Shown here piece after piece: positions 1-53,015 of a stretch of 64,000 nt of DNA; position 1 is the stretch's first letter; the number at the start of each line of letters is the position of its first letter. The translations under genes and the position numbers were made by a program. Source of the DNA: Nitrosopumilus sp. (GTDB taxonomy: Archaea > Thermoproteota > Nitrososphaeria > Nitrososphaerales > Nitrosopumilaceae); assembly GCA_965238275.1 (NCBI GenBank), contig OZ250186.1:640001-704000 (forward strand), read 5' to 3'. The notes below the pieces were generated by a model. It did not search any database. It worked only from the letters and a program-made list of their open reading frames with translations, and had not been told where the DNA came from.

Positions 1-472
1 AGATCTCCGAGATAGCAGTAACCGACATCCTCTCCCATGCCCCCTCAGAGTACCTGTATGCGCCGCATCCCTTCTGTGCCACAAACAAAGTCCCTTCTGC
101 AGGCCAGCCGATTACCCCCAGCACCGGCAGCCCGTTCCTTACCAGCGCGATCATCACCGTAAACTCGCCGGTCCTGTCGACAAAATCCGAAGTCCCGTCA
201 AGTGGATCCACTATCCAGACCGTATCCTCTGAGAGCCTCTGCGGCTCATCTGCATCCTCCTCTGAAAGTATCAGGTGTCCGGTTCGCCTGAGAACCCCCT
301 TGATAATCTCATTGCTTGCAAGATCAGCCTCGGTAACCGGAGAATTATCCGCCTTTGTCGATACCGCAAAGCCCCCCCGATAGATCTCCATGATAGTACC
401 TCCTGCCCTGACTGCTGCCTCCACGGCAGCATCAAGATCCGGAACCCGGCCTGGCAGCGGCATGCCCGACAA
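1..472 (-). CDS. cysQ: 3'(2'),5'-bisphosphate nucleotidase CysQ / inositol monophosphatase family (runs off the window edge)
   Basis: Manual translation of the minus strand gives DNSPVTEADLASN...VWIVDPLDGTSDF...GEFTVMIALV; start is TTG 472 or ATG 463. Confidence 0.88.
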   Translation of the reverse strand, partial: MSGMPLPGRVPDLDAAVEAAVRAGGTIMEIYRGGFAVSTKADNSPVTEADLASNEIIKGVLRRTGHLILSEEDADEPQRLSEDTVWIVDPLDGTSDFVDRTGEFTVMIALVRNGLPVLGVIGWPAEGTLFVAQKGCGAYRYSEGAWERMSVTAISEI

Positions 473-480
473 GACCTTCC

Positions 481-687
481 CTAGGTCGTCAGTTCCGGTT
501 TTAGCGTCCATACCACTCCCAGCATGATGAACGGAATCGACATGATTCCTATGATGCCAAGTATTGTGTTAAACTGAGGCGCCGACACCTCTGGATTGTT
601 GATGATCCACGGCAACGGCAGGGTGATTATCACCCAGATGATCCCCAAAAGTATTATCAGCTTGGCCTTTGCCTTTTTGCCCTTCAC
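481..687 (-). CDS. Small two-TM hypothetical membrane protein
   Basis: ORF with two hydrophobic helices; GTG start at 687; abuts cysQ. Confidence 0.7.
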   Translation of the reverse strand: MKGKKAKAKLIILLGIIWVIITLPLPWIINNPEVSAPQFNTILGIIGIMSIPFIMLGVVWTLKPELTT

Positions 688-902: not shown

Positions 903-916
903 TAAACCTTAAATAG
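903..916 (+). promoter_or_regulatory. BRE/TATA-like promoter (AAACCTTAAATAG) upstream of candidate ncRNA
   Basis: TTAAATA at 909-915 within an AT-rich tract, ~25 nt before the first hairpin. Confidence 0.5.
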
Positions 917-937
917 TTAAAATTCCTATACATGTTG

Positions 938-1060
938 ATGCCGATGGATGCAACTTCTATCGACTAACCCGGCGTAGCCCCGCAGAACAAAAAGGCGCTC
1001 AGAGTATCTGACAGCAAGAGGAAATCTCTTAAAGTTCTGCCGTGAAGGGGATACGCCTCT
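938..1060 (+). ncRNA. Candidate stand-alone structured RNA (5' hairpin plus three-way junction)
   Basis: Stems 942-948/956-962, 971-981/1047-1057, 982-988/1034-1040, 999-1003/1007-1011, 1016-1020/1026-1030; no downstream same-strand gene. Confidence 0.55.
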
Positions 1061-1488
1061 TATTTCTTCAAAATGTCTACAGAGACCGCGCCGTTTACGT
1101 CTCCGTTTGGATCAACGACTATTGTCATCTTCCCACCAATTGGAATCGAAACGGCCTTTTGTCCGTCATAGTCCCAGGTAAAATACTCTGAGATGCCTGT
1201 CTCCTGCAGCGTGCCCCTGAGCCTGAACTCCTCGTGGAAGTCAAGACCCTCCCCGCTTAGCGTTATCGACAGGATCTCCGGACTGCTCCCGTTTGGAACG
1301 AACCCAAAGACATACTCTCCACTGTCTGCTGTAAACGTGTTGGTGAAGACGCCGTTCTTGTACAGGCTGGGGTCTGCAAGGGTCGCATGGAACACGGCCT
1401 TGCTTTTGTCAGGCGAATCTAGCGAGCCGCCACTTACTATGGCGATTACGGCTATGGCTGCCAGCGGAATTATTATCTTCCTATCCAT
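1060..1488 (-). CDS. Hypothetical membrane-anchored/secreted protein
   Basis: MDRKIIIPLAAIAVIAIV signal/anchor followed by a beta-rich domain; the upstream ORF extension looks non-coding. Confidence 0.75.
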   Translation of the reverse strand: MDRKIIIPLAAIAVIAIVSGGSLDSPDKSKAVFHATLADPSLYKNGVFTNTFTADSGEYVFGFVPNGSSPEILSITLSGEGLDFHEEFRLRGTLQETGISEYFTWDYDGQKAVSIPIGGKMTIVVDPNGDVNGAVSVDILKK

Positions 1489-1810
1489 GGGATCAGTCAG
1501 GCGCGATATTATAAAAACGAACTTTGAATCGTTACGTACTTCCCAGTTCTGGCACCAGCCCGGAAACCCGTGTGATTCCAGACACCATGCATCCGGAAGC
1601 TCAAACCCAAACTGCCTGTTTATAACGGAACACCGCAGGGAATGCCTTGATAGATTTTCAAACCGTTCTGTGCATTTGGCCGGCGTACATGGCATGCCCA
1701 AATTACTCCCTAAACCGCAGTCTGTCATGCCGTGGCGTGTCCGTCAGGCCTGGCAAATCACCGCATACCCCAGTGATGCGGCCCATTCTTGTTAGTGAAA
1801 TTTTATGTAC

Positions 1811-2510: not shown

Positions 2511-2578
2511 ATTCTGTCCGTGCCATACTGGTTCCTGCCGGATGTACAGACTGGCACCTGTCTGATTCATAGTTCCTA

Positions 2579-2830
2579 TAGCGGCGAGCAAAAGTTTGTG
2601 CAAACAGATCTCTCTGTAGCGTGTCCTGGTGCTCTTTCCGGCGCTCTGTCAGACCTTCCAATATTGTCGTCGTTGTCGGGTCCAAGCCGACCTGTCGAAT
2701 TGTTCATTCCAGAACCATCCGATCCGTGATCCTCGCGCCTTGTGACGACCTCGACACCTGCAATGGTGCCTCCACGATTCCCGTGGGCTTGGCCGCCAGT
2801 CTCCTCCGTATGGAGACAGTCATTATCCAA
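2579..2830 (-). ncRNA. Putative omegaRNA/reRNA scaffold overlapping the tnpB 3' tail
   Basis: Low-complexity ~80-aa tail after RuvC-III; hairpins 2799-2804/2812-2817, 2772-2776/2782-2786, 2675-2679/2687-2691, 2604-2608/2613-2617; canonical position for a TnpB guide RNA. Confidence 0.55.
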
Positions 2831-3115
2831 AATGTTTTTTGCCGCGTTCTTGTCGGCATGGTGGCACCATCCGCATGAGACGCAGACAAATGATTCGCCG
2901 TTTCTGGACTTTTTGTCCACTATCCCGCAGGCAGCGCATCTCTGGCTTGTATGTGCGGATTCCACGCGTTTTGTAATTCCGCCCCTCTTTTTCATCTGCC
3001 ATTCAACTTGGCTCCGAAACTCGCCCATTCTGGAATAGGCCATCTCGCGGTTCAACCCCGTCTTTGGGGCGGCCCCGTTGGATCTCCTCATCCTGGTCAA
3101 ATCCAGGTCTTCCAG

Positions 3116-3205
3116 AGACGTAATCCGTAATTAGTCGTTAGGCACAAAGTGGGAATAGATGCTAGGCACGAAATGACCCAAAACTGCCTATTACGGATTA
3201 TGTCT
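3116..3205. mobile_element. 90-bp MITE, copy 1
   Basis: 16-bp TIR AGACRTAATCCGTAAT; CAG duplicated at 3113-15 and 3206-08; identical inverted copy at 12695-12784. Confidence 0.92.
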
Positions 3206-4168
3206 CAGGAACAATACGGACAGTCCTTTTGTTATCCGCCTGGCAATGTCGGCCTCGTTGTGTTTTTGCCTGTTTGATATCTTTTTCAATTCATGCGTTA
3301 TCCTGCGGCCGATCTCTTTCCACCTTCTGGAGCCTGGCTGGCATCTTGATCTAAATGATTTCAGCTGATCAATCCTGTCGCCGTCATGCCTCTTGCAGCC
3401 TCCGGGGACACTGTGCAGTTTTTCATTCCCATGCTCGTCTGCGACTGCCGCAAGGTGCCTGACTCCAAGATCCAGCCCTGCCTTGCATCCGCGGCCACCG
3501 CCTGTCGTGGGTTCGGGGTCTGGGACTTCTATCTGCAAATGCAGTTTGAATTCGCGATCACCATCCCTGGTCTTGCGCGTGACCTTGCCTGTGGTGTCAA
3601 TCATCTGGAATGACACGAGCCTGCCTTCTGGAACCCTCGTGCGTGGCCTTACCTCCCCGAGTCCGGGCAGAAATACGGTGCCGTCGTCCCGCAGTTTTGG
3701 CTTTCCGCGTGAATTCAGCGAGCGCAGCCTGGTTGTTTTCCTGCCGCGCCTCATCAGGCTGGACGGCTCGGTCCACCTGTTGTGCTTGTACGTTTTCTTT
3801 TTCCCCAGCTTGATCTGTCTCTTGCGCCAGATGCGCTTGTTGTGCTTGAGCCGGTTTGCCTTGCGGAATTTGACTGCCGCCTGGAAAGCATGTTTTGAGG
3901 CGGCCTCATGCATGCGGACGCTGCTGGCCAGGTTGAATTCCCTGCGCCATCCTGTTATCAGGTTGTTGACATCAAACTGTGTGATCCGTGAGTGTGCAAG
4001 TTTCATCATGATTGTCATGTCGTAAATGATGTCTGTTTCCCGGGAGCATTTCACGATCTTGCGTGACAGTTCCCGAGATTGTGTTATCTTGATGATTTTA
4101 CTGACAATCATACCTGTAGTTGGGATTTATTTTCTTAAAAAAGGTGCCCAAAAAATTGCACGAACTTT

Positions 4169-52941: not shown

Positions 52942-53015
52942 GCGGAGTTAGTTTAGCCCGGTATGACGTCAGCTTCCCAAGCTGAAGGCCGCGGGTTCAA
53001 ATCCCGCACTCCGCA
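52942..53015 (+). tRNA. tRNA-Gly (anticodon CCC), no intron, CCA not encoded
   Basis: Acceptor GCGGAGT/ACTCCGC; anticodon arm TCAGC-TTCCCAA-GCTGA; T-arm GCGGG-TTCAAAT-CCCGC. Confidence 0.96.

What the first reader, a model, noticed from the sequence alone, without database searches (positions are those of the whole stretch)
903..1066. Unannotated ~120-nt structured RNA with its own promoter
Seen: a TATA-like TTAAATA (909-915) lies ~25 nt upstream of a hairpin CGATGGA/TCTATCG. Next come an 11-bp stem GGCGTAGCCCC/GGGGATACGCC (one G.A mismatch) and a 7-bp stem GCAGAAC/GTTCTGC separated by a 6-nt bulge. These close a three-way junction with hairpins TCAGA-GTA-TCTGA and AAGAG-GAAAT-CTCTT, followed by a pyrimidine-rich tail. 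Almost every base from 971 to 1057 is paired or junctional, and no same-strand gene follows. Inference: a trans-acting sRNA rather than a riboswitch. It matches no tRNA, 5S, SRP, RNase P or riboswitch consensus I recognise.
Basis: partly seen in the sequence, partly recalled or inferred. Interest (0 to 1): 0.7.

Follow-up and report, generated by a model that had tools for sequence, protein, structure and literature searches.

The report
Conserved archaeal small RNA with mini-ORF
This is a previously undescribed gene for a structured RNA of about 130 bases, shared by almost all ammonia-oxidising archaea of one family, and it begins with a tiny nine-codon reading frame that may tie the RNA's folding to the ribosome.

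Summary

- **Not a known family:** no Rfam, tRNA or tmRNA match.
- **Not a repeat:** one full copy plus one degenerate paralog in the genome.
- **Distribution:** a covariance model finds it in 135 of 151 genomes of the window's family (25 of 27 genera) and in 0 of 127 genomes of 19 sister families. Public records that match are Nitrosopumilus, Nitrosarchaeum and kin.
- **Structure support:** across 91 homologs 94% of cells pair, against 34-49% when partners are slid. 28 of 35 pairs show compensatory changes.
- **Strand:** G.U outnumbers A.C about 4:1, which points to the + strand.
- **Own transcription signals:** an NTTAAATA box sits at a fixed distance upstream and a U-rich tail follows.

New here: the TATA spacing puts the transcript start at an AUG. 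That AUG opens exactly 8 sense codons plus a stop in 86 of 91 and 71 of 77 homologs. All three stop codons are used. The peptide is not conserved.

Best reading: a stand-alone, family-specific structured RNA that works as RNA, probably protein-bound and engaged by ribosomes. Its function is unproven.

The parts
908..915 (+). Archaeal TATA box (CTTAAATA), at -30..-23 relative to the A of ATG 938
   Evidence: Sequence. An NTTAAATA-type box at the same spacing occurs in 83 of 86 (A2) and 70 of 70 (A3) ORF-bearing homologs. The SRP RNA gene of the same genome has its TATA box at -31..-24 from the start of the Rfam match to the SRP RNA gene.
937..938 (+). Predicted transcription start (G937 or A938). 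This is inferred, not measured.
   Evidence: Inferred from TATA spacing. GeneMarkS-2 paper (PMC6028130, passages read): the promoter box lies about 26 nt before leaderless starts in archaea, and Thaumarchaeota were 11 of 11 in the leaderless group.
938..967 (+). Leaderless micro-ORF: ATG + 8 sense codons + TAA (MPMDATSID*)
   Evidence: The same 30-nt frame is present in 86 of 91, 71 of 77 and 10 of 13 divergent members. The peptide is not conserved.
942..962 (+). 5' hairpin (942-948 pairs with 956-962), lying inside the micro-ORF
   Evidence: Fold. Helix 1: all 6 pairs show compensatory changes and 84% of cells are paired.
971..981 (+). P1 5' strand (GGCGTAGCCCC)
   Evidence: Helix 2: 98.9% of cells paired, 6 of 9 pairs with compensatory changes.
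982..988 (+). P2 5' strand (GCAGAAC)
   Evidence: Helix 3: 97.9% paired, 6 of 7 pairs with compensatory changes.
989..998 (+). A-rich junction strand J2/3 (AAAAAGGCGC). On the minus strand it reads as a T5 run.
   Evidence: Its sequence varies between genera.
999..1011 (+). P3 hairpin. It is short here (5 bp) and about 8 bp in most relatives.
   Evidence: Helix 4: all 8 pairs show compensatory changes.
1016..1030 (+). P4 hairpin (AAGAG-GAAAT-CTCTT), the most conserved element
   Evidence: Helix 5: 98.2% paired. The core GAG/CUC pairs are invariant or near-invariant.
1034..1040 (+). P2 3' strand (GTTCTGC)
1041..1046 (+). 6-nt one-sided bulge (CGTGAA) between P2 and P1
   Evidence: A bulge of 4-7 nt is present at this place throughout A2.
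1047..1057 (+). P1 3' strand (GGGGATACGCC)
1058..1070 (+). U-rich tail, the presumed archaeal terminator. It overlaps the stop codon and the last codons of the convergent gene.
   Evidence: A T-run of 4 or more within 25 nt after P1 occurs in 65 of 91 (A2) and 52 of 75 (A3) homologs.
1060..1491 (-). Convergent neighbour 'c0': a 143-aa protein with a hydrophobic N-terminus and no Pfam family. It is listed as context, not as part of the RNA.
   Evidence: It abuts the RNA in 69 of 91 loci. It is found in 22 of 23 family genomes and 0 of 127 genomes of other families.

Best explanation
Window ~938-1068 (+) is the gene for a stand-alone structured RNA of about 130 nt. It belongs to a new RNA family that was found only in the window's own archaeal family. 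Public records that match are named Nitrosopumilus, Nitrosarchaeum and other Nitrosopumilaceae.

**Shown or strongly supported**
- It has its own TATA box and a U-rich terminator.
- It folds into a 5' hairpin plus a long helix (P1, a one-sided bulge, P2) that closes a three-way junction with hairpins P3 and P4.
- It works through the RNA and not through an encoded peptide.

**Inferred**
- The transcript begins at an AUG that opens a 9-codon frame. In an organism that translates leaderless mRNAs this should load a ribosome.
- The stop codon lies 3-5 nt before P1. A terminating ribosome would therefore have to open the base of P1.
- I therefore think the RNA is most likely a protein-bound regulatory or scaffold RNA acting in trans. 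Its conformation or lifetime would be coupled to translation through the mini-ORF.

**My odds**
- About 0.9 that it is a genuine conserved RNA gene.
- About 0.6 that it acts as a free-standing RNA in trans.
- About 0.3 for the ribosome-coupling step.
For: **Structure**
- 13 of 14 diverse homologs have z <= -2.87, and 10 of 14 reproduce the P1-bulge-P2 three-way fold on their own.

**Covariation**
- A1 (21 sequences): 93.4% of cells paired against 33-48% when slid; 9 of 35 pairs compensatory.
- A2 (91 sequences, about 25 genera): 94.3% against 34-49%; 28 of 35 pairs and 274 cells compensatory; 0 of 500 shuffles reach any of the five measures.
- In MI-APC the top 10 column pairs all lie in the model helices.

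**Strand**
- G.U 174 against A.C 40 in A2, and 128 against 31 in A3.

**Distribution**
- 23 of 24 same-genus genomes by BLAST.
- 135 of 151 family genomes and 25 of 27 genera with model R1. That count includes the unpublished genomes G117, G132 and G133, each with a match; without them it is 132 of 148.
- 0 of 127 genomes of 19 other families with R1 and with R2.
- 0 of 36 in each of two sister families at E<=1.
- An exact-pattern scan of 185,579 species genomes gave 119 or more stretches. The 80 listed are all Nitrosopumilaceae or Thaumarchaeota-labelled records, apart from three with broader or odd labels.
- 0 matches in viral contigs.

**Independent gene**
- A TATA box at -30..-23 in 83 of 86 and 70 of 70 homologs.
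- A U-rich tail.
- It occurs next to unrelated genes: an unknown protein, a DUF1246/DUF1297 protein, a TFB-like gene and an aroA-like gene on the convergent strand, and other genes on the same strand.

**Mini-ORF**
- ATG + 8 sense codons + stop in 86 of 91, 71 of 77 and 10 of 13 divergent copies.
- TAA, TAG and TGA are all used.
- Two paralogs are shorter by exactly 3 nt.
- The frame is kept even in a paralog type whose inner domain is different (L110, L243, L245, L246).
- The phylum is leaderless-prone (PMC6028130, passages).
Against: - I saw no transcript, 5'-end or 3'-end data. The transcription start and the terminator are inferred from sequence only.
- No partner protein and no RNA target was identified. 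A scan of the own genome for complements of four conserved segments gave nothing beyond chance.
- The mini-ORF may be a by-product of conserved RNA motifs. The peptide is not conserved: 55 peptides among 60 distinct ORF sequences, with the second codon position the most variable (entropy 0.99, against 0.71 at position 1 and 0.84 at position 3).
- The weakly matching copies of one genus (g29; L108, L109) have neither the AUG nor the stop. One copy (L242) has a stop right after the AUG, and one (L078) has ACG in place of ATG.
- The A2 and A3 alignments were fitted to the model, which favours the structure. The sequences are related, so the shuffle controls overstate significance.
- The RNA and the abutting gene c0 share the same family-restricted distribution. 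A cis link to c0 is therefore not excluded.
Confidence: 0.6

Rival explanations
1. It is a small-protein gene. The product is the 9-aa peptide, and the downstream structure is only a stabilising 3' UTR and terminator.
For: - A TATA box about 26-30 nt before an ATG is the geometry of leaderless genes in this phylum.
- The frame length and the stop are kept in 86 of 91, 71 of 77 and 10 of 13 homologs.
- Indels are in-frame in L086 and L087.
Against: - There are 55 different peptides among 60 distinct ORF sequences.
- The second codon position is the most variable.
- Changes that keep the hairpin paired cause radical residue changes, for example K to L and I to N or G.
- The roughly 95-nt 3' domain is far more conserved than the ORF and shows covariation.
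- g29 copies lack the ORF.
Confidence: 0.07
2. It is a cis element of the convergent gene c0. Either it is the 3' UTR and terminator structure of the c0 mRNA (minus strand), or it is a cis-antisense RNA whose job is to control c0.
For: - c0's stop codon lies 2 nt from P1, and c0 abuts the RNA in 69 of 91 loci.
- Both are limited to the same family: c0 is in 22 of 23 family genomes and 0 of 127 others.
- Neither was found in genus g21.
- J2/3 reads as a T5 run on the minus strand, about 65 nt after the c0 stop.
- The minus strand also folds, z = -2.29.
Against: - G.U against A.C at about 4:1 favours the + strand.
- A conserved + strand TATA box sits at fixed spacing.
- The RNA occurs without c0 in g27 and is separated from c0 in g18 and g23.
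- Paralogs sit next to unrelated genes, some of them co-directional.
Confidence: 0.1
3. It is a classical base-pairing sRNA. A single-stranded seed, for example the near-invariant CUAUCGACUAA or the A-rich junction, pairs with mRNAs.
For: - It is a stand-alone gene with a U-rich 3' tail.
- The 3' half of the 5' hairpin plus the linker is more conserved than its pairing partner.
Against: - The most conserved parts are helices (P1, P2, P4), not loops.
- Complements of four conserved segments in the own genome are at or below chance: 1 found against about 0.9 expected, and 15 against about 31 with one mismatch.
- The junction strands vary between genera.
Confidence: 0.15
4. It is a diverged member of a known RNA class: tRNA-like or tmRNA-like, C/D or H/ACA guide, 5S, SRP or RNase P RNA, a ribozyme or a riboswitch.
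For: - The size of about 120-130 nt and the three-way junction recall 5S rRNA or a tRNA-like fold.
- UGAUGC near the 5' end and CUGA in P3 recall C and D boxes in this genome.
Against: - No Rfam match even at E<=10.
- ARAGORN finds nothing.
- Canonical 5S, SRP and RNase P RNAs are found elsewhere in the genome above their cut-offs.
- The C-like and D-like motifs are not conserved across homologs. Most have UAAUGY, and the CUGA covaries as a stem.
- There is no ACA box after the helix and no tandem G.A for a K-turn.
- No co-directional downstream gene is present in most contexts.
Confidence: 0.03

Closest known systems
Dual-function (coding) small RNAs such as SgrS/SgrT, RNAIII/delta-haemolysin and SR1/SR1P
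   Same: A short stand-alone transcript that carries both a small ORF and a structured RNA part.
   Different: In those, the peptide is conserved and functional and the RNA part pairs with mRNAs. Here the peptide is not conserved, the ORF is leaderless and only 9 codons long, no target was found, and the organism is an archaeon.
Leaderless short-ORF attenuators of mycobacteria (bioRxiv 10.1101/834739; only the search listing and the start of the abstract were seen) and classical leader-peptide attenuators (recalled)
   Same: A very short ORF at the 5' end of a transcript, starting at the transcription start. Its translation, and not its peptide, is thought to act on a downstream RNA structure followed by a U-tract.
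   Different: Those regulate a downstream gene on the same strand. Here most copies have a convergent gene downstream. An alternative pairing of the terminator strand was tested and was inconclusive.
tmRNA (recalled; searched for with ARAGORN)
   Same: A stable structured RNA that carries a roughly 10-codon frame ending in a stop and that engages ribosomes. Archaea have no known equivalent.
   Different: ARAGORN finds none. The frame here starts with AUG at the 5' end instead of an internal resume codon. No tRNA-like acceptor/T-arm, no G3.U70 and no conserved tag sequence are present.
Tan1, 'Thalassoarchaea ncRNA 1' of marine group II archaea (PMC5069720, passages read)
   Same: An orphan, lineage-restricted structured ncRNA of abundant marine planktonic archaea, recognised from conservation and predicted structure, with unknown function.
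   Different: It comes from a different lineage, has a different size (229 nt) and has no reported mini-ORF. Tan1 has transcript evidence, and this RNA has none yet.
Archaeal C/D-box and H/ACA guide RNAs and K-turn RNPs (recalled definitions)
   Same: Small, promoter-driven archaeal RNAs with conserved helices interrupted by asymmetric loops that bind proteins.
   Different: The defining boxes and the tandem G.A pairs are absent or not conserved. No Rfam hit.

Membership tests
Any Rfam 15 family | Covariance-model match at the gathering score, or at least E<=10 | tested here: not met
   The only gathering hit in the window is a tRNA at 52942-53015. There are 0 matches at E<=10 in 700-1300 on both strands.
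tRNA / tmRNA | Cloverleaf or tRNA-like domain detectable by ARAGORN | tested here: not met
   0 genes found in 700-1300.
5S rRNA / SRP RNA / RNase P RNA | This locus would be the genome's copy of that RNA | tested here: not met
   Canonical copies above the cut-off lie elsewhere in the genome: 5S at 194567-194686, SRP at 504754-505065 and RNase P at 1581920-1582198.
C/D-box sRNA | Conserved C box (RUGAUGA) near the 5' end and D box (CUGA) near the 3' end, forming a K-turn | tested here: not met
   The 5' motif is UAAUGY in most homologs. The only CUGA lies in P3 and covaries as a stem. Box definitions are recalled.
H/ACA sRNA | ACA box just 3' of the hairpin, and a pseudouridylation pocket with a K-turn or K-loop | tested here: not met
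   The tail after P1 is CC + U-rich and has no conserved ACA. The internal loop is one-sided. Definition recalled.
K-turn RNA | 3-nt bulge followed by tandem sheared G.A/A.G pairs, with unpaired partners on the other strand | tested here: not met
   The bulge consensus is A-R-U-N-N-A on the 3' strand only. The opposite strand has no unpaired bases.
Riboswitch / cis-regulatory leader | Lies upstream of a co-directional regulated gene, with junction nucleotides the most conserved | tested here: not met
   The downstream gene is convergent in most loci (c0 in 69 of 91). Junction strands vary between genera while the helices are conserved.
MITE / repeat element | Many copies per genome | tested here: not met
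   One full-length BLAST match in the own genome. One match with R1. One extra degenerate copy with R2. Relatives have 1-4 copies per genome.
Leaderless protein-coding gene | TATA box about 26 nt upstream of an AUG at the transcript start | tested here: met
   TATA at -30..-23 in 83 of 86 and 70 of 70 homologs. This is the same spacing as the SRP RNA promoter relative to the start of the Rfam match to the SRP RNA gene. The actual 5' end was not measured.
Leaderless protein-coding gene | Purifying selection on the encoded protein | tested here: not met
   55 peptides among 60 distinct ORF sequences. Codon-position entropies are 0.71, 0.99 and 0.84.
Leader-peptide attenuator | Mutually exclusive terminator and anti-terminator pairings | tested here: inconclusive
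   Duplexes between J2/3 and the 3' strand plus tail are more stable when matched than when permuted (-5.71 against -4.89 kcal/mol, 0 of 5000). The effect is weak in the non-AAGG subset (309 of 5000). By fixed columns, 62.6% of cells pair against 34-54% when slid, with no excess covariation.
Leader-peptide attenuator | A regulated gene downstream on the same strand | tested here: not met
   The downstream neighbour is convergent in most loci. Only some paralogs have a co-directional gene.
Dual-function sRNA | A conserved functional peptide plus an mRNA-pairing region | tested here: not met
   The peptide is not conserved. No complementary sites above chance. Pairing with mRNAs in vivo cannot be tested with these tools.

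The most novel reading that the evidence does not exclude
This would be a new kind of ribosome-engaging RNA in archaea. The transcript mimics a leaderless mRNA and loads a ribosome at its 5' AUG. Exactly nine codons later the ribosome is brought against a very stable bulged helix. Translation would then open the helix, and the folded RNP would in turn hold or release ribosomes. The RNA would read out, or set, the cell's translational status. Examples would be a ribosome-parking or translation-sensing RNA in slow-growing, nutrient-limited ammonia oxidisers. That is a role with no known archaeal RNA.
Probability: 0.2. Interest if true: 0.85.

Novelty: new variant of a known kind. Interest (0 to 1): 0.66.

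Why it matters
Nitrosopumilaceae are among the most abundant microbes in the ocean, and they drive marine nitrification. Almost nothing is known about RNA-based regulation in them.

This is a promoter-driven, covariation-supported RNA. It is present in nearly every genome of the family, was found in none of the sister-family genomes searched, and matches no Rfam family. It is therefore a strong candidate for a lineage-defining regulator or RNP.

It also gives a concrete object to look for in marine metatranscriptomes, where such reads would now go unassigned.

The conserved leaderless nine-codon frame, kept in length but not in sequence, is unusual. It offers a directly testable case of translation acting on a structured RNA in an archaeon that uses leaderless initiation.

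Tried and rejected
- **Pseudoknot or alternative helix between the A-rich junction J2/3 and the P1 3' strand plus U-tail.** The permutation test was positive overall but weak in the informative subset. The fixed-column count was no better than the slid controls in covariation. The geometry also conflicts with P1-P2. Left as inconclusive.
- **Extension of P1 by pairing the linker and stop codon with the U-tail.** 43% of cells paired, the same as the shuffles. Rejected.
- **MI-APC search for further long-range pairs.** Only the known helices and alternative registers inside the 5' hairpin were found.
- **Target scan of the own genome for complements of four conserved segments.** At or below chance. 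The repeated 11-mer TTAGTCGTTAG belongs to a multi-copy sequence and has one mismatch.
- **Scan for other P4-like hairpins in the genome.** The five hits whose context I read look like chance matches, four of them in open reading frames; the rest of the listed hits were not examined.
- **Riboswitch, C/D, H/ACA, K-turn, tRNA/tmRNA, 5S, SRP and RNase P readings.** See the membership tests.
- **Bulge-helix-bulge splicing motif.** Rejected by inspection. In other genera P1 is a perfect 10-bp helix with no bulge on the 5' strand.
- **Programmed read-through of the stop into the structure.** Rejected by inspection. P3 length changes are not multiples of three.
- **Viral carriage.** 0 matches in viral contigs.
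- **Literature.** Nine full-text searches found no description of this RNA. Passages read in PMC5069720 and PMC13475601 concern other RNAs. Shi et al. 2009 (marine 'psRNAs', recalled only) is not in the searchable library and may hold related environmental reads. The supplements of PMC5069720, which list Thaumarchaeota start sites, were not opened.
Full report
**1.

- TTAAATA at 909-915.
- A hairpin, 942-948 with 956-962.
- An 11-bp stem, 971-981 with 1047-1057, with a G977.A1051 mismatch.
- A 7-bp stem, 982-988 with 1034-1040.
- A one-sided 6-nt bulge at 1041-1046.
- Hairpins at 999-1011 and 1016-1030.
- A pyrimidine-rich tail from 1058.

RNAfold gives exactly this structure as MFE and centroid: -44.5 kcal/mol, against a shuffle mean of -31.9, z = -3.33, with 0 of 200 shuffles as good. 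The reverse strand folds less well, z = -2.29.

**2. It is not a known RNA and not a repeat**

- Rfam 15 at gathering thresholds finds only a tRNA at 52942-53015 in the whole window.
- A permissive scan at E<=10 of 700-1300 finds nothing.
- ARAGORN finds no tRNA or tmRNA.
- The genome has ordinary 5S, SRP and RNase P RNA genes elsewhere, all above their cut-offs.
- BLAST of the 141-nt stretch against the window's own 2.2-Mb genome finds only itself plus four 17-19-nt chance matches.

**3. It is conserved across one archaeal family**

- BLAST found clear homologs in 23 of 24 genomes of the same genus, often two per genome. It found only short chance matches in 16 genomes of other families.
- I aligned 21 homologs (A1), wrote the structure by hand and built covariance model R1.
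- R1 matches 135 of 151 genomes sampled from the family, 107 of 115 high-quality genomes, and 25 of 27 genera. This count includes three unpublished genomes (G117, G132, G133), each with a match. Without them it is 132 of 148.
- Two genera gave no match with R1: g21 (0 of 4) and g29 (0 of 5).
- In a sample of the order, R1 matched 22 of 23 family genomes and 0 of 127 genomes of 19 other families.
- A broader model R2, built from 91 sequences, matched 23 of 23 and again 0 of 127.
- R2 found weak copies in g29 (2 of 2 genomes) but none in g21 (0 of 2).
- R2 found nothing in 36 genomes each of two sister families at E<=1.
- An exact gapped pattern from P2 and P4 hit 119 or more stretches among 185,579 species genomes. 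The 80 listed are titled Nitrosopumilus, Nitrosarchaeum, Nitrosopumilaceae, marine group I or Thaumarchaeota. Three have broader or odd labels: 'Nitrososphaeraceae archaeon SCK_bin.6' and two plain 'archaeon' records.
- The same pattern hit no viral contig.

**4. The structure is supported by covariation, on the + strand**

- On A1, 93.4% of cells pair against 33-48% when partners are slid by 1-3 columns. 9 of 35 pairs show compensatory changes.
- On A2 (91 sequences from about 25 genera), 94.3% pair against 34-49%. 28 of 35 pairs and 274 cells are compensatory. No shuffle out of 500 reaches any of the five measures.
- All five helices contribute. P3 varies most (8 of 8 pairs compensatory). 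P4 and the ends of P1 are nearly invariant.
- A mutual-information scan with APC correction puts its ten best column pairs all inside these helices and reveals no pseudoknot.
- In the 35 pairs, G.U or U.G cells outnumber A.C or C.A cells 174 to 40 in A2 and 128 to 31 in A3. This is what a + strand RNA predicts and the opposite of what a minus-strand RNA predicts.
- Folded alone, 13 of 14 diverse homologs have z <= -2.87, and 10 of 14 give the same P1-bulge-P2 three-way fold as MFE.
- Caveats: A2 and A3 were aligned to the model, and the sequences are related. The controls are therefore indicative and are not probabilities.

**5. It looks like an independent gene**

- An NTTAAATA box lies at -30..-23 from the conserved ATG in 83 of 86 (A2) and 70 of 70 (A3) homologs that carry the ORF.
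- The SRP RNA gene of the same genome has its TATA box at -31..-24 from the start of the Rfam match to the SRP RNA gene.
- After P1 comes a U-rich tract. A T-run of 4 or more occurs within 25 nt in 65 of 91 and 52 of 75 homologs.
- From ATG to the end of P1 the median length is 128 nt.
- The neighbours differ between copies:
  - In 69 of 91 loci the convergent gene c0 abuts the 3' end.
  - Other copies converge on a DUF1246/DUF1297 gene, a TFB-like gene or, for the window genome's second copy, an aroA-like gene.
  - Some are followed by a co-directional gene.
- This variety argues against a cis element of one particular gene.

**6. New finding: a conserved leaderless mini-ORF**

- The TATA spacing puts the transcription start at or 1-2 nt before an ATG (938-940 in the window).
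- From it runs a frame of exactly 8 further sense codons and a stop (938-967, MPMDATSID*).
- The same 30-nt frame is present in:
  - 86 of 91 sequences of A2;
  - 71 of 77 sequences with an intact 5' side among named public genomes (of the 6 exceptions, five have TTG one codon later in frame and one is masked by N);
  - 10 of 13 of the most divergent copies.
- All three stop codons are used: TAA 55, TAG 13 and TGA 3.
- Two paralogs are shorter by exactly three bases.
- The frame survives in a paralog type whose inner domain is quite different (L110, L243, L245, L246).
- According to the GeneMarkS-2 paper (PMC6028130; I read the passages found), all 11 Thaumarchaeota analysed fall in the group with prevalent leaderless transcription, with a promoter box about 26 nt before the start codon. 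A transcript that begins with AUG should therefore be taken up by ribosomes in these organisms.

Results against a coding role:
- The peptide is not conserved. There are 55 peptides among 60 distinct ORF sequences, and the second codon position is the most variable (entropies 0.71, 0.99 and 0.84).
- Substitutions follow the hairpin pairing rather than amino-acid similarity.
- The g29 copies have neither the AUG nor the stop. One copy (L242) has a stop right after the AUG, and one (L078) has ACG in place of ATG.

So the frame's start, length and stop are conserved, but its sequence is not.

**7. How it most likely works**

Shown:
- A conserved, + strand, promoter-bearing structured RNA.
- The sequence conservation sits in helices P1, P2 and P4 and in the presence of the one-sided bulge. 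The junction strands and P3 vary.

This pattern fits recognition by a protein, or a tertiary contact, better than a ligand pocket or an mRNA-pairing seed. That reading is an inference.

Also inferred:
- The stop codon lies only 3-5 nt before P1.
- A ribosome covers roughly 12-15 nt downstream of its P site (established knowledge, recalled).
- A ribosome finishing the mini-ORF would therefore have to open the lower part of P1.
- I propose that the RNA acts in trans as an RNP, and that ribosome loading at the 5' AUG couples its fold or its lifetime to translational activity.

I give about 0.9 to 'genuine conserved RNA gene', about 0.6 to 'free-standing, trans-acting RNA', and about 0.3 to the ribosome-coupling step.

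**8. Rivals**

- **Small-protein gene (0.07).** It fits the start, stop and length conservation. It fails on peptide conservation and does not explain the far better conserved 3' domain.
- **Cis element or antisense partner of c0 (0.10).**
  - For: the abutting arrangement; the shared family-restricted distribution of c0 (22 of 23 against 0 of 127); and neither c0 nor the RNA being found in g21.
  - Against: the strand asymmetry; the element's own promoter; the RNA being present without c0 in g27; and copies in unrelated contexts.
- **Classical base-pairing sRNA (0.15).** Not excluded, but no complementary sites above chance were found in the own genome.
- **Diverged known class (0.03).** Fails every membership test run.

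**9. Things tried that led nowhere**

- Complementarity between J2/3 and the P1 3' strand plus tail is better for matched than for permuted pairs (-5.71 against -4.89 kcal/mol, 0 of 5000). It is weak in the informative subset (309 of 5000) and is not supported column by column.
- An extension of P1 by the linker and the tail is not supported.
- Scans for P4-like hairpins and for complements of conserved segments in the own genome gave nothing that stood out.
- Nine literature searches found no description of this RNA.
- The marine 'psRNA' study of Shi et al. 2009 is only recalled and could not be checked.
- The supplements of PMC5069720, which list start sites on Thaumarchaeota contigs, were not opened and may bear on whether the RNA is expressed.

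**10. Verdict**

It is a new RNA family restricted to Nitrosopumilaceae-type archaea, with good comparative support and a conserved leaderless nine-codon frame of unknown purpose.

It is a new family, not a new member of a described one. I cannot show that its mechanism is new, so I rate it 'new variant of a known kind', with interest 0.66.

The decisive evidence is experimental: transcript ends, ribosome occupancy and bound proteins.

Noticed in passing
window 1060-1491 (-): The convergent gene 'c0' encodes a 143-aa protein with a hydrophobic N-terminus and no Pfam family. With this query it is found in 22 of 23 genomes of the family and in 0 of 127 genomes of other families. It abuts the RNA in 69 of 91 loci. 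Its function is unknown.
   Followed up: partly
G000:C1:1549761-1549897 (-) = L110:1501-1637 (-), outside the window: This is a second, degenerate paralog of the RNA in the same genome (R2, 35.7 bits). It keeps the TATA box, ATG + 8 codons + TAA (MAKRVNFMA) and a perfect P1, but has a different inner domain. It lies between an aroA-like gene (convergent) and an aroC-like gene; those two names come from my reading of the translations, not from a tool. A partial tandem duplicate of its promoter and 5' part lies just upstream, at L110 ~1640-1740. The same paralog type occurs in three other genomes (L243, L245, L246).
   Followed up: partly
window 2576-3100 (-) and 3191-4111 (-): A TnpB / IS605 OrfB-like gene is split into two ORFs. 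Pfam gives Cas12f1-like_TNB at 1.6e-17 and OrfB_IS605 at 5.4e-11. An 11-mer at window 3131-3141, in the gap between the two TnpB-like ORFs, recurs identically at 7 or more other genome sites. This suggests a multi-copy insertion sequence.
   Followed up: no
window 989-998 (+), read on the minus strand: The A-rich junction strand is a T5 run on the minus strand, about 65 nt downstream of the c0 stop codon. It could serve as the terminator of c0, so that the c0 3' UTR would be antisense to the 3' half of the RNA. This was not tested.
   Followed up: no
L108:1501-1640 and L109:1501-1636 (genus g29): These are GC-rich (about 61%) weak homologs, in the same place relative to a c0-like gene end. They keep the hairpin, P1, P3 and P4, but have neither the AUG nor the in-frame stop.
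   Followed up: partly
The upstream partial ORF at 2-511 (-) matches the inositol monophosphatase family (9e-32), consistent with 'cysQ-like'.
   Followed up: no
L103:1501-1647, L094:1501-1651 and L095:1501-1651: In some genera a paralog of the RNA is followed by a co-directional gene, 17 nt later in L103 and 78-85 nt later in L094 and L095. From the N-terminal residues I read these as a superoxide-dismutase-like gene and a CorA-like gene, but no family search was run on them.
   Followed up: no
window 52942-53015 (+): An ordinary tRNA gene. It is the only Rfam gathering-level match in the window (68.1 bits).
   Followed up: no
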